This document shows positions 1 to 38,540 of a stretch of DNA of 38,540 nt, in pieces. The notes below the pieces were generated by a model. It was not told where the DNA came from, ran no database searches, and was given only the letters and a program-made list of their open reading frames with translations. Position 1 is the stretch's first letter; each line of letters opens with the position of its first letter. The stretch comes from a virus (taxonomy: Duplodnaviria; Heunggongvirae; Uroviricota; Caudoviricetes), in the IMG/VR virus record IMGVR_UViG_2541047933_000012; one strand, written 5' to 3'. The position numbers and the translations under genes are program-made.

Positions 1-129
1 ATGCTTATTGGCTATGTACGTGTGTCAACAAATGACCAGAACACAGATCTACAACGTAATGCGCTGAACTGTGCAGGATGCGAGCTGATTTTTGAAGACA
101 AGATAAGCGGTACAAAGTCCGAGACCTAG
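1..129 (+). pseudogene. Truncated serine recombinase (Pin/Hin-family DNA invertase) N-terminal remnant
   Basis: Translation from nt 1 gives MLIGYVRVSTNDQNTDLQRNAL..., the conserved invertase N-terminus with the catalytic Ser, ending at TAG 127-129 after 42 codons; intact invertases are about 190 aa. Confidence 0.55.
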
Positions 130-224
130 GGCTGACACTGCTGTTCTTGATGCAAATTAAAGTATTTAATAGTGAGTAGCGGCCTTACTAATGTAAGGCC
201 ACTATAATCATTTTATTAATTGCA

Positions 225-2174
225 TTAATCGTGTTTTGGCCATACTTTCAATGCAATTTCCCCCAACTTTTTACCCCGCTCCAGGATTTCATCCTCATCC
301 CATTTATCCTTAACTATAAGTGGAATGTTCAGTCGTAGATTGGTGTGGACGATGAGAGCATCACGTTTTTTCAGAAATACAGCATTCTGAACAGAACGGT
401 TTACGCTAAGGTTAAGCAAAGTTAGATTTCCCAAAGTAGATATCGCTTGTTGCCGTTTCCTTACCAGTAGCTGTTCAGGGGTAAGATCGGTTCCAGACAG
501 AACAATTTGGTTCAATACCGTAGCATCTGAATTTGTCACCATACGACCATTTTCGAGAGGCCAACAGGAATACCAACTTTGAGGCATAAGATGATCGATA
601 TCGAGATTAGAAAGATTTGGAACATCAGGCTTTTCTGTCTTTACTTGGCGACAAAGTTCTCTTTCAAGTTCCGTTAACATTGAGCGCATTTTCGGTGCGT
701 CGAGCCTGCCAGGATAAAGTGGAGCATTGATGCAAGCGTTGAGAAATTCTGAGTCACCAGGCCAACGTGAGGCTTCGCCATTTAAGTTATTGAGGATATT
801 ACGTAACTCAACACTGGAAATTTCCGTTTTAGCCAAGTGCCGCAATACATTCATAAATACATTGTTGTAATTCTTTGGCGTCAGGCCACATACGGCTCTT
901 CGTACTACGTAGGAGACAAGATCATTATACATGGCTGCTTTCTCATCATCAGCGATGTTAGCTATCGAAATGAACAAAGCAAGCGGATAAAGTGTCGTCA
1001 CATCATAGTCTGCGATGCGATATCCAAAGTGTGAGATGGGGGTTGTGCCAAAACCATCAACCAATTCTTTATATTGTGATGCATATTGTTTGAGGCGCTT
1101 TACTTGCAGATCTGCTCGTTGTGAAGACAAGTCCTTACTTACATAATCACGATACTCATTGTAAAGGCGAGACAGATCAATTTCACGTTGCCTTTCTGAT
1201 TGCAATGTCGCATGTACTAGCCACTCCATGCGTGGTTTATTAATACGTCCACGGCGTTGTTTTTCCGACCAGTATTTATCTTCAAAGCTCTTCCACTCAT
1301 TTTCATATAATTCAATAGCATTAATATTTTCATGCTCAGCGCACATAAAGATATAGTTGCGAATAAGATCCGTAGCATGAAGTTCCGCCCCTCGCCCATT
1401 TAATGTTTCAAAAATTATTTGGGCATCATCTTCAGCTTCGAGAAATATGCTTACCAGTTTCAGATCTGTTAAGACAGCCTCAATTAGAGCTACAGCATTT
1501 TCTTGTGGTGAGTGGTTTTCTATTTTAATCCATTTTATAAAGGCTTCAGTAAAAAAACATAATGCTTCTAGTGATGGCGGGTGATTAAAATGCTTACGCA
1601 ACGTACCATGCTGCGTGAAACTATCAGAGAATACGTCCCGGAGATCGTCAATATTTTCAACATTAAAACTTTGAATAAAATGAGTTTGATCCCGAAAAGT
1701 TGGCCACAGTTTGAAGCGTTCTACTTCTTTATTTCGCATTGTGTCTTCGTTTGAGTTTTTCAGGCAAGGCGAAATGAGAGCCTCTAAGCTGGAAAGATCC
1801 GTAGCACGTAATGCTAATCGGATGGATGCCAGAACATATTGAAGAGTGGTCAATCGTTGCTGACCATCAATAATATGTATGGAATCTACACCTAATAATC
1901 CTTTTTTTGATTGAGGTTCCAGTACAACCGCACCAAGGAAATGGGGAGTTGGTTTTGTACCCGAGAGCCGGGATTGTACTTTCTCTAGGATATCCTCCAG
2001 TAGAGCTGACCACTGGTCTTGCTGAGTCCATACATAGGCACGTTGATAGAATGGAACACAGTATTGTCGGCGGTCTTGAAAAAGTTGTTGGACAGTTAGC
2101 GTCTCGGATTTCATGGTATACCTGTAAGCGACATTGTACAAAAGTGAGGAGTTAATCTGATTTAGAACAATCAT
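225..2174 (-). CDS. DUF262/DUF1524 two-domain protein, GmrSD-like type IV (modification-dependent) restriction endonuclease candidate
   Basis: 649-aa ORF with N-terminal ParB-like DGQQR motif (IIDGQQRLTTL) and C-terminal HNH-like DUF1524 motifs (DIDHLMPQ, GNLTLLN). True start may be the internal Met at 2114. Confidence 0.6.
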   Translation of the reverse strand: MIVLNQINSSLLYNVAYRYTMKSETLTVQQLFQDRRQYCVPFYQRAYVWTQQDQWSALLEDILEKVQSRLSGTKPTPHFLGAVVLEPQSKKGLLGVDSIHIIDGQQRLTTLQYVLASIRLALRATDLSSLEALISPCLKNSNEDTMRNKEVERFKLWPTFRDQTHFIQSFNVENIDDLRDVFSDSFTQHGTLRKHFNHPPSLEALCFFTEAFIKWIKIENHSPQENAVALIEAVLTDLKLVSIFLEAEDDAQIIFETLNGRGAELHATDLIRNYIFMCAEHENINAIELYENEWKSFEDKYWSEKQRRGRINKPRMEWLVHATLQSERQREIDLSRLYNEYRDYVSKDLSSQRADLQVKRLKQYASQYKELVDGFGTTPISHFGYRIADYDVTTLYPLALFISIANIADDEKAAMYNDLVSYVVRRAVCGLTPKNYNNVFMNVLRHLAKTEISSVELRNILNNLNGEASRWPGDSEFLNACINAPLYPGRLDAPKMRSMLTELERELCRQVKTEKPDVPNLSNLDIDHLMPQSWYSCWPLENGRMVTNSDATVLNQIVLSGTDLTPEQLLVRKRQQAISTLGNLTLLNLSVNRSVQNAVFLKKRDALIVHTNLRLNIPLIVKDKWDEDEILERGKKLGEIALKVWPKHD

Positions 2175-2538
2175 TTTATTTTGCTATGATACAACGTATT
2201 TGTTACCGATTAAGTAAAAAACGCGTCTGAACGCTGACGTTTTAGGGCTTTACTGGTTATTCTTTCTTATCTCTTCATCATCCCATCGGCATCCTGTCGA
2301 GGTTGTTGACTTGTTGTTATTTATTTTGTCTAGGCGCTGTTTAATTATTATTGATAGAATTGATGGTGAGAGGTGATTGAAACCGTAGGCACGTCGTTTG
2401 CAAGGACGTGCTACGACTGGCTGGTGAACTTCCGATAGTGCGAGTATTGAATGATTTCCTACGTGCTAACTAGTGAACAAACAACTCTTCAGTAGACTCT
2501 CAGGTATCATTCAGAGTTTCCTGAACGAAAGTTTTAGC

Positions 2539-2717
2539 TCAATCTTTATCTGCAGTATGTCTAACTGAAAAACTATCGTTGCTGGTGGCTTTTACGATCA
2601 TCTCCACATCGTCATAACGCTTGCCAATGTGTTGGGTTAATTCTTCCTTTAACGCGTCCACAGCGCCGTTTGGCATTTGGTCATTTTGTCTTTGGCTATG
2701 GAGATCTCAATACGCAT
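2539..2717 (-). pseudogene. dinI-like SOS gene, apparently frameshifted
   Basis: Minus-strand ATG at 2717 gives [14 protein letters not shown], then stops; the rest continues one frame over as [37 protein letters not shown]. Both halves match the DinI family pattern; span length is not a multiple of 3. Confidence 0.5.
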
Positions 2718-2732
2718 AACACTTCTTTTGTA

Positions 2733-2776
2733 CTGCGTTTGTAGACAGTATTATTCTTATCTGTGTAAATAAACAG
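2733..2776. promoter_or_regulatory. Two tandem LexA (SOS) boxes upstream of the dinI-like gene
   Basis: CTGTGTAAATAAACAG at 2761-2776 is a perfect CTGT-N8-ACAG box; CTGCGTTTGTAGACAG at 2733-2748 has one mismatch. Both lie within about 60 bp upstream of the start at 2717. Confidence 0.5.
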
Positions 2777-2958
2777 TATCAAGACTTCGTTTTAGCTGCA
2801 TAAGAAAAAAGAGATGGATACATTCGGAAAGATTTTGATGGTGGTAGGCTAAGTGAATAGCCTAAAGGTGTTTTACCCCAATTATTCCCCGGTATTTCTC
2901 CGCATAAAAAACAATCATAAAAAAACCAGCCATAATAGGCTGGTTCTTAAGGGATTTT

Positions 2959-3015
2959 TGGTCGGCACGAGAGGATTTGAACCTCCGCCCCCCGACACCC
3001 CATGATGGCGAGCTA
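2959..3015 (-). other. Orphan 3-prime fragment of tRNA-Pro (anticodon loop through CCA), likely attR core; not a functional tRNA
   Basis: Reverse complement reads ...CATGGGGTGTCGGGGGGCGGAGGTTCAAATCCTCTCGTGCCGACCA, matching the 3-prime ~45 nt of enterobacterial tRNA-Pro (GGG) as recalled, with one T-stem mismatch; no D-arm or 5-prime acceptor strand follows. Confidence 0.55.
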
Positions 3016-3114
3016 CGATCTTAAGGGCTGTTATGTGCCAGAAACAGAGATTTTTATATTCCTCACTCTGGAAATCATAATGCTAACTAGTAGGGATTAT
3101 AAGTTGTCAATTGA

Positions 3115-4537
<1,423 letters not shown>

Positions 4538-35238: not shown

Positions 35239-35346
35239 AAATCAGCACGTACGAATTCAAACTCTGCCATAAAAGAACATATAAGTAATTTATTAACATA
35301 TAGATATAGGTTATATTACAAATTGAAAAATTATTGGAGAGCAACA

Positions 35347-36213
35347 ATGAATCAAAATCCATTCTCATTCTATGACTTTCTTGGATATTTAATACCAGGT
35401 GGTTTTTTTATCCTATTAATGTATTTCTGTGGTTTGACATTCGATCTAGATATTGTTATTGACTTAAGTGAATTGCTCAGAGGTCAAAGTCAAATCTTTG
35501 GCATTTTGAACTACGCTTCAATAGTTATTATATCTTATATAGCTGGACATTTTATTTCTATCACGTCAGCATTTTTTATCGAAAAATACATGAATAAAGA
35601 ATTAGGATATCCTTCCAAATATCTATTTAAAAAATTGATAGATACCTCAGAAAGCATTTGTAGCCCATCATGCGATGAGAGAAGCGCTGATAAAAAAACA
35701 AAAATAAAGAATCGCATAATCAAATGCGTATTATGTCCAATAATACTATGGGATTTTATAACACAAAAACTATGTTATTCTCAATCTCTACCATTTCATT
35801 TAGCTAATACAACATGGTTAATGATCAAAGAAGGTTATGAGAAAAAGTTCATAACAAATCGCCAATTATTACAAGATAAAAACGGACTTGATGATGATCT
35901 CTTCAGATTGGCATATCATTATGTTTATGAGTTTTCAAAACAACATCAAACAAAAATTCAAAACTATGTTGCATTATATGGTTTTTGCAGAAACATATGT
36001 TTAATCTTTATAATTTCATTTTGGGTATCAGTTCCAACCTTTATTTATCGATTATGTACTCATAGTGATTATCTTTATAGTTTACTTTCAATAATGCTTA
36101 GCTTTTTCTTCGTCTATGTTTTCTATGTTGGTTTTGTTAAATTTTATAGAAGATATACTTTAGAAGTATTAATGGCATTTGCTGTACTTCAAAGTAACGA
36201 CACTATTCGTTAA
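35347..36213 (+). CDS. Multi-pass membrane protein (AT-rich moron), unknown function
   Basis: About 288 aa from the ATG at 35347 with GGAG upstream; at least five hydrophobic TM-like segments; visibly AT-rich. Confidence 0.5.
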   Translation: MNQNPFSFYDFLGYLIPGGFFILLMYFCGLTFDLDIVIDLSELLRGQSQIFGILNYASIVIISYIAGHFISITSAFFIEKYMNKELGYPSKYLFKKLIDTSESICSPSCDERSADKKTKIKNRIIKCVLCPIILWDFITQKLCYSQSLPFHLANTTWLMIKEGYEKKFITNRQLLQDKNGLDDDLFRLAYHYVYEFSKQHQTKIQNYVALYGFCRNICLIFIISFWVSVPTFIYRLCTHSDYLYSLLSIMLSFFFVYVFYVGFVKFYRRYTLEVLMAFAVLQSNDTIR

Positions 36214-36254
36214 TAATGTTGCTCCCGTGTGCAGACGGGATAATGGAGAAACGT

Positions 36255-36461
36255 ATGCTGAACCTCGATTGTGTTCCTATCTCAACTTATTGCAAAGAAA
36301 CTGGCGAAACTCCTGAAGCAATAAACAAACGTGTACAGCGCGGTGTTTGGCGTGAAGGTGTTCAGGTTTTAAAGGTTGAAGGCGTTAAGGAGAGGTGGAT
36401 TGATCTTAGTGAGGTTGCAAAATGGGCCAGACAAAACTGCTCAAACTACCGCGCGGCGTAA
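36255..36461 (+). CDS. Excisionase-like small DNA-binding protein
   Basis: 68 aa from the ATG at 36255 with GGAG upstream; its 3-prime end overlaps the integrase start. Confidence 0.4.
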   Translation: MLNLDCVPISTYCKETGETPEAINKRVQRGVWREGVQVLKVEGVKERWIDLSEVAKWARQNCSNYRAA

Positions 36462-37594
36462 CAATCAGGAAACACCACCAGGGAGAAACGATCAATATAA
36501 CTTTCACCTACAAAGGAGTTAGATGTCGTGAGCCGCTTTCCAATCTGGAAGTAACACCAAAGAACATTAAATACGCCGAGCGTACACTCGGCGAAATCCA
36601 TAATAAGATCGAAAGGGGAACATTCATTTATGCAGAATATTTTCCCCGTTCTGCTCGTTTGAAAATTTTTGGTAATGCTGCTGCAAGCAAAACGGTAAAG
36701 ATGTACCTGGACGAATATCTTGAAATCTGCGAAACAAGAAAACTTTCACCCTCTACGATTGGTGGCTATAAAAAATGCCGTAGTGCGTTAGCCTCACTTC
36801 ACATTTGCCCTGCAAGTGAATTAACACCAGCAACCCTGAAAGCGTGGATTCAAAGCCAGAAAACAACCTTAAAAACCATTCGCAACCAGTTATCTTTCCT
36901 ACGGTCAGCACTTGATGAAGCCGTGACCGATGGGGTACTTCAAATTAACCCCGTATCGTTAGTAACAGCTTCGCGCTACCAAAGTGATAAGTCAGAAGCA
37001 GAAAGCAGCTATGTGGTTGATCCGCTATCACCAGCAGAAGTTGATGCATTACTAGCAGCAGCCGGAAACAAACAATGGGAAAATCTGTTCCGGTTCGCCA
37101 TACATACAGGCCTGCGTAGTTCTGAATTATGTGCCCTACGATGGCATGATATCGACTTTGTTGGAAAAACAGCCCATGTTCAGAGCGCAAGTGTTGTCGG
37201 AGTTATCAAAGGAACAAAGACAAAAGCCGGTACCCGTAAAGTTGAACTGACTGAAGAAGCAATGTTGGCGTTGATAAACCAGAAGCCATTTACATTCATG
37301 AAGGATGCTACTGTCTTTGAAGATCCAAAGACCAATAAACCCTGGGCAAGTGCTGATGCAATTAGGAAAAAAGCATGGGTGCCAACATTGCGAAAAGCAG
37401 GTATTCGTTACAGAAACCCATATCAAACCAGGCATACATTCGCCACCAGCCATATCAGCCGGGGAGCAAACCTGTTTTGGCTTGCGGCTCAAATGGGCCA
37501 TAAAGGGCCTGAAATGTTATTCAGGCACTATGGACAATACTTGAAAGAGTATGATGGGAGGGCAAGTATCAAGGATAAAAAGGCTTTATTTTAA
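36422..37594 (+). CDS. int: Tyrosine integrase (lambda Int family)
   Basis: 390 aa with N-terminal arm-binding-like domain and C-terminal catalytic R...HxxR...Y signature (RHTFATSH...RHYGQY). Confidence 0.9.
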   Translation: MGQTKLLKLPRGVTIRKHHQGETINITFTYKGVRCREPLSNLEVTPKNIKYAERTLGEIHNKIERGTFIYAEYFPRSARLKIFGNAAASKTVKMYLDEYLEICETRKLSPSTIGGYKKCRSALASLHICPASELTPATLKAWIQSQKTTLKTIRNQLSFLRSALDEAVTDGVLQINPVSLVTASRYQSDKSEAESSYVVDPLSPAEVDALLAAAGNKQWENLFRFAIHTGLRSSELCALRWHDIDFVGKTAHVQSASVVGVIKGTKTKAGTRKVELTEEAMLALINQKPFTFMKDATVFEDPKTNKPWASADAIRKKAWVPTLRKAGIRYRNPYQTRHTFATSHISRGANLFWLAAQMGHKGPEMLFRHYGQYLKEYDGRASIKDKKALF

Positions 37595-38203
37595 GTCATT
37601 ATGCCAATCGTCTACTGTTTGAAACCAAATTTTTAACCTTTGCATAAAGGTACGATCCTTTTTGGGAGGGTGGTACCTTTGAAAAGAAGTATGTAACGCT
37701 TCGATAACTCCCATACAAGCATCAATTACTTCTTGTGCTTTAACCGGGCGATCGGCATCTGAAAGCTTGTGAGCGACCTCACAATCCAGAGTTGCTTTCT
37801 CTAGTACAGATGAGAACACCTCGTCAGGTATATACAGTCCTCTGCTTTCCAAAATGCAAATCAGTTTGGAAACTTGTTGAGCTTTAGCCAAGATAGTTAA
37901 CAAGTATGAAACAGAAGCCTTTGTTCTATCCTTTTGCAACCTTAACAATCGATGCTTTGATGCTCTAATTTTAGGTTGAGTTGTCTGACTGAGCCAATAG
38001 TTAGAAGAAATATCAGAAATTTCAATAACTAACTTTGAAATAGCATCAATAATTGATTTCGATTCAGAACGTGTCGCCAGTTTTACAGAATTATTGTACG
38101 CAACTCGCCATCCAATGAAAACTAAGCAGACGCTAACTACTGTGATACACCACGAATACTGTCCTATTTGTGCTACTAATGACATTGGTTCCGTACTGAT
38201 CAA
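37586..38203 (-). CDS. Hypothetical N-terminally membrane-anchored protein (cassette gene 2)
   Basis: 205 aa with one N-terminal TM-like segment, then a charged, probably helical region; its stop overlaps the integrase 3-prime end by 9 bp. Confidence 0.4.
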   Translation of the reverse strand: MISTEPMSLVAQIGQYSWCITVVSVCLVFIGWRVAYNNSVKLATRSESKSIIDAISKLVIEISDISSNYWLSQTTQPKIRASKHRLLRLQKDRTKASVSYLLTILAKAQQVSKLICILESRGLYIPDEVFSSVLEKATLDCEVAHKLSDADRPVKAQEVIDACMGVIEALHTSFQRYHPPKKDRTFMQRLKIWFQTVDDWHNDLK

Positions 38204-38213
38204 CTATCGCCTC

Positions 38214-38540
38214 TTATACTCTTTCTGGTTGTGCTAAATCAATAAATTTATCAATCTGTTCTTTGTAGAACGGAACATCACTTTTTATAATCAAACGTGC
38301 TTTAACGTTGGCTTTAGGTATCCCTTCCTTACGGATGAGACCTCCAAACGCCTCTTCTAAGAAAGAGGAACCAACACCCAGTGCTATACCGCGAAAATCA
38401 ACCACAATCTCCTGTTCAGTACCCTTCAGCGCAGGCACCAAAAACTCTCTACGAAATCTTTCCGCACTGTGTGGGCTATCCGTTGTGTAACGTCCGAAAG
38501 GTGTTCTGGAGAACTCCTTCGCTATGACGATATTTCTCAT
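38214..38540 (-). CDS. Small STAS-like (DUF4325-like) protein (cassette gene 1)
   Basis: 108 aa starting at the last base of the window; the IVVDFRGI...GSSFLEEAFGGL pattern resembles DUF4325 as recalled; 10 bp upstream of cassette gene 2. Confidence 0.35.
   Translation of the reverse strand: MRNIVIAKEFSRTPFGRYTTDSPHSAERFRREFLVPALKGTEQEIVVDFRGIALGVGSSFLEEAFGGLIRKEGIPKANVKARLIIKSDVPFYKEQIDKFIDLAQPERV

What the first reader, a model, noticed from the sequence alone, without database searches (positions are those of the whole stretch)
37586..38540. Uncharacterized two-gene cassette beside the integrase
A small STAS-like protein and a membrane-anchored 205-aa protein form a tight minus-strand operon converging on int and overlapping its 3-prime end by 9 bp. 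The int-to-att junction is a classic prophage cargo hotspot. The cassette looks AT-richer than the phage core by eye and I recognise no characterized system in it. A partner-switch module gating a membrane effector is one speculative reading.
Basis: partly seen in the sequence, partly recalled or inferred. Interest (0 to 1): 0.7.

Follow-up and report, generated by a model that had tools for sequence, protein, structure and literature searches.

The report
Kinase–STAS–membrane protein prophage cargo operon
The two genes beside the integrase are the last two genes of a conserved three-gene operon, whose first gene (a kinase) lies just past the window edge; it resembles the recently described VapKSC anti-phage toxin–antitoxin system but has an uncharacterised membrane-anchored protein where VapKSC has a nuclease.

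Summary
Both ORFs are real. The 108-aa protein (S) is a Pfam DUF4325 STAS-like protein. The 205-aa protein (T) has one N-terminal membrane helix and a predicted helical bundle. T's stop overlaps the integrase stop by 9 bp, and the pair is 39.8% GC against 53.3% for the phage core.

The cassette is not two genes. The window ends at the ATG of S. In E. coli UTI89, which is 100% identical here, a 303-aa gene (K) lies 4 bp upstream. K is predicted to be an N-terminal STAS domain plus a SpoIIAB/RsbW-type GHKL serine kinase.

K→S→T is contiguous in all 40 IMG/VR viral contigs that encode a K relative, and in loci from Enterobacterales, Vibrio, Photobacterium and Rheinheimera. Twenty-four of the 40 converge on an integrase.

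Related prophages with the same integrase and ssrA site carry other genes in the int–att slot, so this is swappable cargo.

K and S are homologous to VapK and VapS of VapKSC (EMBO J 2026). T is not a PIN nuclease and matches no known family.

My best reading is a kinase/STAS switch that controls a membrane effector for abortive phage defence. That function is inferred, not shown. I class it as a new variant of a known kind.

The parts
38214..38540 (-). S gene: 108-aa DUF4325 STAS-like protein, the VapS-type partner. It is the second gene of the operon. The first gene, K (303 aa, STAS + GHKL kinase), lies just outside the window, at what would be 38545-39456 on the minus strand (UTI89 NC_007946 2942072-2942983).
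   Evidence: Pfam DUF4325 E 6.2e-14. VapS of VapKSC is also DUF4325, E 2.7e-17. hhalign of the S family against VapS gives E 2.4e-4. K is documented.
38367..38369 (-). Codon of Ser58 in the invariant motif G-x-G-S-S-F-L-E-E-x-F-G-G-L; predicted phospho-acceptor.
   Evidence: Invariant in 8 of 8 diverse homologues. Aligned to the phosphorylated Ser48 of VapS by hhalign. Role of VapS Ser48 from PMC13373217. Phosphorylation here is inferred.
37586..38203 (-). T gene: 205-aa membrane-anchored protein, the third gene and the putative effector.
38099..38155 (-). Predicted transmembrane helix of T (residues 17-35), ending in the family hallmark G-W-x-V-x-Y-x-N.
   Evidence: Hydropathy maximum. Motif conserved from E. 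coli to metagenomic relatives. There are no basic residues before the helix and R/K residues after it, so the C-terminal domain is inferred to be cytoplasmic.
38210..38215 (-). AAGAGG ribosome-binding site for T. It overlaps the S stop codon and lies 6 nt before the TTG start.
   Evidence: Read directly from the sequence. It supports the 205-aa start over RefSeq's 199-aa call.
37586..37594 (.). 9-bp convergent overlap of the T and integrase stop regions.
   Evidence: Similar tight junctions (-11 to +22 bp) occur in most of the 24 viral contigs where T converges on an integrase.
36422..37594 (+). Tyrosine integrase (Arm-DNA-bind_2 type) of the ssrA-integrated prophage. Similarity to other alleles breaks at about 37557.
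   Evidence: Pfam. 412 E. coli genomes share it, but only 118-126 continue into the cassette.
36216..36461 (+). Excisionase.
   Evidence: phrog_2917 excisionase, E 8e-45.

Best explanation
The finding is the distal two-thirds of a three-gene operon, K-S-T, carried as swappable cargo between the integrase and the ssrA attachment site of an E. coli (ExPEC) prophage.

K is a 303-aa protein encoded just beyond the window. It has an N-terminal STAS domain and a SpoIIAB/RsbW-type GHKL serine kinase domain. S is a 108-aa DUF4325 STAS protein. T is a 205-aa protein with one N-terminal membrane helix and a cytoplasmic helical bundle.

The proposed mechanism is by analogy with VapKSC, where the kinase VapK phosphorylates the STAS antitoxin VapS and so releases the toxin VapC:
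1. In uninfected lysogens, unphosphorylated S binds and restrains T.
2. An infection cue activates K. Single-stranded DNA is the precedent.
3. K phosphorylates S on Ser58.
4. S lets go of T.
5. Freed T damages or depolarises the inner membrane, so the infected cell stops supporting phage growth (abortive infection).

Shown here: gene content and order, the domain identities of K and S, their homology to VapK and VapS, the membrane anchor of T, and the cargo/hotspot location.

Inferred: the S-T interaction, phosphorylation of Ser58, the activating signal, T toxicity and phage protection.
For: Operon and coupling:
- The genes are 4 and 10 nt apart, each with its own Shine-Dalgarno site.

K:
- The AF2 model has pLDDT 88 and pTM 0.88.
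- The N-box (E155/N159/H163), G1 (D201-x-G-x-G205) and G2 (R242-G-x-G245) motifs are invariant in 29 homologues.
- A profile of 245 K relatives scores VapK at 40.6 bits, against 16.7 for SpoIIAB and 20.3 for CapK.

S:
- It is DUF4325, like VapS.
- Ser58 aligns with VapS Ser48.

Published precedent:
- VapKSC is a K-S-toxin operon. Phospho-mimetic VapS fails to neutralise the toxin, and the operon gives about 2 logs of protection against phage Bas42 (PMC13373217).

Synteny:
- K→S→T is present in 40 of 40 IMG/VR contigs with a K relative. There are no PIN hits. Twenty-four of the 40 converge on an integrase, and 13 of the 40 have K at the provirus edge.
- The same order is found in Pluralibacter, Enterobacter, Salmonella, Yersinia, Photobacterium, Rheinheimera, Vibrio, Serratia, Budvicia and Rouxiella.

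Cargo behaviour:
- The same integrase and the same ssrA-glaH site carry an AAA ATPase plus a Dam methylase (JJ1886, phage phiNP), ParA plus 2 ORFs (RM13322), or two other ORFs (SCU-101) in this slot.
- The cassette is retained next to a decayed integrase between lipA and lipB.
- It has neighbours typical of defence islands: NERD, a PvuRts1I-like enzyme, HicAB and HipA-like genes.
- No PP2C phosphatase gene lies nearby, which fits a one-way switch (gene tables).
Against: - There is no experimental data for this operon. No paper mentions its accessions.
- No PADLOC model hits any of the three proteins.
- The fold of T is a generic helical bundle that does not indicate a toxin. A single membrane helix with a 14-residue external tail is not an obvious pore former.
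- The similarity of K to VapK is remote. BLASTP is not significant, and hhalign against the single sequence gives E 0.004.
- I could not test whether the ssDNA-binding aromatic residue of VapK/CapK is conserved.
- tblastn found K and T in none of 50,697 deposited phage genomes. Packaging of the cassette in virions therefore rests on the att boundaries and on the phiNP analogy.
Confidence: 0.5

Rival explanations
1. T is the sensor or anchor, not the effector. The membrane-tethered bundle would detect envelope or DNA-injection events, or simply sequester S at the membrane. The output would then be K phosphorylating other host or phage proteins once S is released or captured, as in classical partner switching where the kinase is itself the regulator.
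For: The best structural matches of T include the four-helix-bundle sensor domains of histidine kinases and chemoreceptors. The closest folds to K are anti-sigma factors, which act by binding a target as well as by phosphorylating STAS.
Against: The bundle matches are generic; designed helical bundles score equally well. The T bundle is predicted to be cytoplasmic, not periplasmic (and the charge distribution). K has no additional output domain, and no sigma factor or other target gene is conserved nearby. The only characterised relative places the third gene as the effector.
Confidence: 0.15
2. The operon serves the prophage's own life cycle rather than defence. It could be a DNA-damage-responsive switch that couples induction to a membrane event (holin-like timing, or superinfection exclusion at the membrane). 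Alternatively, its transcription running antisense into int could modulate excision.
For: CapK/VapK-type kinases respond to ssDNA from DNA damage, which is also the prophage induction signal. T converges tightly on integrases of different families in 24 of 40 viral contigs. The T and int stops overlap by 9 bp.
Against: The operon also occurs with no integrase or phage genes nearby (Photobacterium, Rheinheimera, Acinetobacter), and at other prophage positions such as after tail genes or among capsid genes. Sister prophages with the same integrase lack it and carry unrelated cargo, so it is dispensable for the phage cycle.
Confidence: 0.15
3. It is a selfish addiction (toxin-antitoxin) module, or a general stress-response module, that stabilises the prophage end without a specific anti-phage role.
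For: The architecture parallels a tripartite toxin-antitoxin system. The cassette persists beside a decayed integrase. The authors of the VapKSC paper note that the line between stress response and immunity is blurred.
Against: Its location in a slot that exchanges defence-like genes (AAA ATPase plus methylase), and its frequent defence-island neighbours, favour an anti-phage role. This rival overlaps mechanistically with the best explanation.
Confidence: 0.12
4. It is a self-contained two-gene STAS-plus-membrane-protein cassette.
For: Only two genes are visible inside the window.
Against: The window ends at the STAS start codon. K lies 4 nt upstream in the identical UTI89 sequence. K accompanies S and T in 126 of 126 E. 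coli genomes and 40 of 40 viral contigs.
Confidence: 0.02

Closest known systems
VapKSC (Escherichia sp. E4736; Chambers et al., EMBO J 2026, PMC13373217)
   Same: It is a three-gene operon in the order kinase, STAS protein, third protein. K has the same STAS + GHKL architecture as VapK, which scores 40.6 bits against the K-family profile. S and VapS are both Pfam DUF4325, with the phospho-serine aligned. Neither system has a phosphatase gene. Both are mobile and defence-island associated.
   Different: The third protein is not a PIN/VapC nuclease. It is a membrane-anchored helical bundle with no detectable similarity to VapC. K is only remotely similar to VapK in sequence. Nothing has been tested experimentally for this operon.
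CapK-CapS regulators of CBASS/Bub/Thoeris operons (same paper)
   Same: It is a GHKL kinase with a STAS domain paired with a STAS substrate protein, and it is associated with mobile immune loci.
   Different: K lacks CapK's N-terminal HTH. S lacks CapS's C-terminal winged-helix DNA-binding domain (108 aa, DUF4325 only). No immune operon follows; only T follows, then the integrase on the other strand. CapK scores no better than SpoIIAB against the K profile.
Classical partner-switching modules (SpoIIAB-SpoIIAA, RsbW-RsbV)
   Same: The kinase domain of K is structurally closest to SpoIIAB and RsbW. S is STAS-like, with a serine at the canonical position.
   Different: There is no sigma factor target and no PP2C phosphatase nearby. 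K carries its own N-terminal STAS domain. The operon sits in prophage cargo.
Prophage integrase-proximal defence hotspots (e.g. the P2/P4 hotspots of Rousset et al. 2022, PMC9122126)
   Same: It is a variable slot at a fixed position in otherwise related prophages, filled with alternative accessory and defence-like genes.
   Different: This is a different phage lineage (e14/CPS-53-like early genes, myovirus tail) and a different slot, between int and an ssrA att site. The content found here matches none of the systems modelled in PADLOC.

Membership tests
VapKSC | Kinase with STAS + GHKL (anti-sigma-type) domains encoded first | tested here: met
VapKSC | Small DUF4325 STAS protein with a conserved Ser/Thr phospho-acceptor encoded second | tested here: met
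   DUF4325 E 6e-14. VapS is DUF4325 at E 2.7e-17. Ser58 is invariant and aligned to VapS Ser48. Phosphorylation itself was not tested.
VapKSC | Third gene encodes a VapC-like PIN-domain nuclease toxin | tested here: not met
   T has no PIN hit in Pfam. hhalign against VapC gives E 0.18. The predicted fold is all-helical with a membrane helix. There were no PIN hits in 40 viral loci.
VapKSC | Kinase activated by ssDNA through an aromatic residue at the STAS/GHKL interface | not testable with these tools
   The alignment of the K N-terminal domain to VapK/CapK is too weak to map F54/W68. No complex prediction was available.
VapKSC | Protects against phage; the STAS protein neutralises the toxin | not testable with these tools
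   Needs plaque and toxicity assays.
CapK-CapS transcriptional regulators | CapK has an N-terminal HTH; CapS has a C-terminal winged HTH and represses a downstream immune operon | tested here: not met
   K is 303 aa and starts directly with the STAS domain. S is 108 aa with DUF4325 only. Downstream are only T and the convergent integrase.
Classical SpoIIAB/RsbW partner switch | Anti-sigma kinase plus STAS antagonist, together with a cognate sigma factor and a PP2C phosphatase | tested here: not met
   The kinase and STAS folds are present. No sigma factor or PP2C gene appears in any neighbourhood table.
Pfam DUF4325 (STAS-like) | Score above the Pfam gathering threshold | tested here: met
   51.9 bits against a cut-off of 23.
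Known anti-phage systems in PADLOC-DB v2.0.0 | Any protein matches a system model | tested here: not met
   No hits for K, S or T at E up to 1-10.
Prophage int-att cargo (moron) hotspot | Lies between int and the att repeat, and differs among prophages that share the integrase and the integration site | tested here: met
   The ssrA 3' end repeat flanks the element. 412 genomes share the integrase and 126 have the cassette. Alternative cargo in JJ1886, RM13322, SCU-101 and phiNP is bounded by the same ssrA fragment.

The most novel reading that the evidence does not exclude
K-S-T is a large, unnamed family of abortive-infection systems. Its kinase family has 2376 clusters (50% identity) with E ≤ 0.001, of which 1218 have E ≤ 1e-10. 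In this reading an infection-activated anti-sigma-type kinase phosphorylates a DUF4325 STAS antitoxin and so unleashes a new class of membrane-anchored four-helix-bundle toxin. That would make the kinase/STAS pair a general, effector-swapping trigger module of bacterial immunity, and it would be present in the model uropathogen UTI89.
Probability: 0.4. Interest if true: 0.75.

Novelty: new variant of a known kind. Interest (0 to 1): 0.62.

Why it matters
If the model holds, the GHKL-kinase/STAS phospho-switch just described for VapKSC and CapKS would extend to a different and apparently much more widespread effector class. That would be a membrane-anchored protein with no known fold family or function.

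It would also add an active defence module to a prophage carried by ST95-type ExPEC strains (UTI89, S88, APEC O1, IHE3034). This bears on phage-therapy host range.

The integrase-to-ssrA-att slot of this prophage lineage would be a place to mine further systems.

The hypothesis is directly testable in E. coli with a 2.1-kb clone and point mutants.

Tried and rejected
- PADLOC, NCBIfam and Pfam gave nothing for T. For K they gave only a sub-threshold HATPase_c_2 hit.
- PDB sequence searches with single sequences and with profiles found no relative of K, S or T. The VapS-VapC entry 9Z7O did not surface.
- A weak hit of the T profile to the Kdo transferase KrKA (E 0.007) was dismissed as helical noise.
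- BLASTP of K against VapK was not significant. Profile against single sequence with hhalign was collinear but of low probability. Homology was accepted only after a broadened profile scored VapK at 40.6 bits with a SpoIIAB control at 16.7.
- tblastn of K and T against 50,697 deposited phage genomes found nothing.
- The genome-contig scan returned only 4 loci, because it relied on a single peptide pattern.
- Rfam and inverted-repeat scans of the operon and its flank showed only the ssrA fragment and its terminator.
- The promoter scan gave counts no higher than in shuffled sequence. The one candidate upstream of K is only a consensus match.
- I considered and rejected an att site inside the int 3' end. 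The ssrA repeat lies beyond K in UTI89, JJ1886, SCU-101, the Salmonella loci and phiNP.
Full report
**What is in the sequence**

A 108-aa ORF lies at 38214-38540 and a 205-aa ORF at 37586-38203.

- The first ORF hits Pfam DUF4325, 'STAS-like', at E 6.2e-14, well above the curated cut-off.
- The second has no Pfam, NCBIfam or PADLOC hit. It matches only an unannotated PHROG.
- The second has one strongly hydrophobic segment at residues 17-35. There are no basic residues before that segment and there are R/K residues after it. By inference, the remaining ~170 residues face the cytoplasm.
- The genes are 10 nt apart. An AAGAGG site that overlaps the upstream stop codon lies 6 nt before the TTG start. 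I therefore prefer the 205-aa form to RefSeq's 199-aa call.
- The 3' end overlaps the integrase stop region by 9 bp.
- The pair is 39.8% GC, against 53.3% for the phage core.

**The cassette has three genes**

The window ends exactly on the ATG of the STAS gene. The window is 100% identical to E. coli UTI89 over 4538-38540.

In UTI89 a 303-aa gene (WP_000154254; here K) ends 4 nt upstream of that ATG, with an AGGAGA site in between. In window numbering K would occupy about 38545-39456 on the minus strand.

The pair occurs in 126 of 5426 complete E. coli genomes. The full three-gene stretch occurs in the same number.

**What K is**

- Pfam gives only a sub-threshold HATPase_c_2 hit.
- An alignment of 29 homologues shows invariant GHKL motifs: E155/N159/H163, D201-x-G-x-G205 and R242-G-x-G245.
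- The AlphaFold2 model is confident, with pLDDT 88 and pTM 0.88.

K is therefore a STAS domain fused to a SpoIIAB/RsbW-type kinase.

**What T is**

The AlphaFold2 model has pLDDT 80. It shows a long helix (residues 9-73) that contains the membrane segment, followed by a helical bundle.

Conserved polar residues may mark an interface or an active site. They are Y36, N38, T44, R45, E47, K49, D53, R121, T138, C141 and E142.

**Conservation of the operon**

Homologues of T, K and S were found in many Gammaproteobacteria. Every neighbourhood examined has K, then a DUF4325 protein, then a T-like protein, contiguous on one strand.

- Pluralibacter, Enterobacter kobei, and a metagenomic lipA-lipB locus where the integrase has decayed to a 240-aa remnant.
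- Salmonella, Photobacterium, Yersinia and Rheinheimera.
- Vibrio.
- Serratia, Budvicia and Rouxiella.
- These were confirmed with my own profiles.

Some relatives are more distant. In Acinetobacter, a Rhodospirillaceae element and two remote K hits, the third gene is too diverged for the T profile. It is still a small protein with an N-terminal membrane helix. That helix ends in the same G-W-x-V-x-Y-x-N motif in the two remote K hits, and as G-W-I-V in Acinetobacter.

In IMG/VR, all 40 viral contigs that encode a K relative have K→S→T. None has a PIN gene. In 24 of them T converges directly on a tyrosine integrase. In 13 of them K is the last gene at the provirus edge.

An exhaustive profile search found 2376 K-family clusters (50% identity) at E ≤ 0.001, and 1218 at E ≤ 1e-10.

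**Location: cargo in the int-att slot**

The prophage sits between ssrA and glaH. The ssrA 3' end and about 160 bp downstream of it are repeated 153 bp beyond the start of K, at 88% identity. The operon is therefore inside the element, between int and the right-hand att.

The same integrase (92% nucleotide identity or more) is in 412 E. coli genomes. In about 290 of them, similarity stops around 37 bp before the integrase stop. Downstream, and still bounded by the ssrA fragment, those relatives carry other genes:

- JJ1886 has an AAA ATPase plus a Dam-like methylase.
- RM13322 has ParA plus two ORFs.
- SCU-101 has two other ORFs.

Citrobacter phage phiNP has a related integrase followed by an AAA ATPase and an unannotated stretch that I read as encoding a methylase. 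Its record ends on the ssrA 3' sequence.

In Salmonella, the ssrA fragment lies just upstream of K, and different elements lie beyond it.

One caveat remains. tblastn found K and T in none of 50,697 deposited phage genomes.

**Comparison with what is known**

A 2026 paper (PMC13373217) describes two related systems.

- CapK/CapS consists of an HTH-STAS-GHKL kinase activated by ssDNA and a STAS-wHTH repressor.
- VapKSC is a three-gene toxin-antitoxin and defence operon. The STAS-GHKL kinase VapK is proposed to phosphorylate Ser48 of the STAS antitoxin VapS, which would release the PIN toxin VapC. Supporting this, a phospho-mimetic S48E VapS neither binds nor neutralises VapC. The operon gives about 2 logs of protection against phage Bas42.

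I compared our proteins with the sequences in that paper's appendix.

- VapS is itself a DUF4325 protein, at E 2.7e-17.
- hhalign places our invariant Ser58 on VapS Ser48.
- An earlier survey had already noted a VapC group that is 'transcriptionally coupled to DUF4325 genes' (PMC5499597).
- K against VapK is not significant by BLASTP, and is weak but collinear by hhalign.
- A profile built from 245 K relatives scores VapK at 40.6 bits. It scores CapK at 20.3 bits and a SpoIIAB control at 16.7 bits. K is therefore a remote relative of VapK.
- T has no similarity to VapC and is not a PIN protein.

The operon therefore fails the VapKSC membership test on the effector. It also fails the CapKS test, because it has no HTH or wHTH domain and no downstream immune operon. 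It shares the kinase/STAS core with both.

**Most likely mechanism (inferred)**

1. S binds and restrains T in uninfected lysogens.
2. An infection cue, with ssDNA as the precedent, activates K.
3. K phosphorylates S at Ser58.
4. T is released and compromises the membrane, which aborts the infection.

The absence of any PP2C phosphatase gene nearby fits a one-way switch.

The rivals are that T is a sensor or anchor and K is the output, that the operon has a role in the prophage's own induction or excision, or that it is a plain addiction or stress module.

None of the functional steps has been tested. No paper mentions these proteins.

**Verdict**

This is a new variant of a known kind. It is a widespread K-S module with a novel membrane-anchored third component, sitting in a prophage defence-type hotspot of a model ExPEC strain.

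Interest is moderate to high, and the hypothesis is readily testable.

Noticed in passing
window 35323-36213 (+): A 288/296-aa multi-pass membrane ORF of only 28% GC lies between the yfdR-like HD-domain gene and xis. It has a weak PADLOC hit to the type VI-B CRISPR accessory protein Csx27 (E 1.4e-5) and belongs to phrog_12528. It is absent from the JJ1886 and RM13322 sister prophages, so it looks like a second cargo slot.
   Followed up: partly
window 225-2174 (-): A 649-aa DUF262/GmrSD-type type IV methyl-directed restriction enzyme (PADLOC mREase_IV, 1415 bits) sits at the opposite end of the prophage. The element therefore carries defence-type cargo at both ends.
   Followed up: partly
window 1-4537: Window 1-3713 is inverted relative to UTI89 (it maps to UTI89 locus L002 9942→6230). 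Window 3714-4537 has no UTI89 match. A truncated invertase-family recombinase lies at the junction in UTI89. The tail-fibre/cargo end is therefore rearranged between strains.
   Followed up: no
window ~37557 (inside int, about 37 bp before its stop): Similarity among the integrase alleles of 412 E. coli genomes breaks at this point, regardless of which cargo follows. The recombination junction for cargo exchange therefore appears to lie within the 3' end of int, and each cargo brings its own integrase C-terminal codons.
   Followed up: partly
window 37586-37594 and upstream into int: There is no terminator between the convergent T and int genes. Transcription of the cassette in a lysogen would run antisense into the int 3' end. 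Tight T-int junctions (-11 to +22 bp) recur with different integrase families in IMG/VR contigs.
   Followed up: no
UTI89 locus L002 4015-4200 and 47138-47320 (beyond the window): The direct repeat flanking the element is unusually long, about 185 bp at 88% identity. It covers the ssrA 3' end plus the downstream terminator. The right-hand copy lacks the 5 bases TCCAC of the tmRNA 3' end.
   Followed up: partly
PHROG phrog_5816 (441-aa profile): The 108-aa STAS protein matches only positions 341-439 of this 441-aa phage protein family. Fused versions, in which a longer N-terminal part precedes DUF4325, therefore exist in phages.
   Followed up: no
window 22001-23000 and 24001-25000: Two further AT-rich patches (33.6% and 37.8% GC) lie near the HNH/lysis region of the prophage. 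They may be additional morons or regulatory regions.
   Followed up: no
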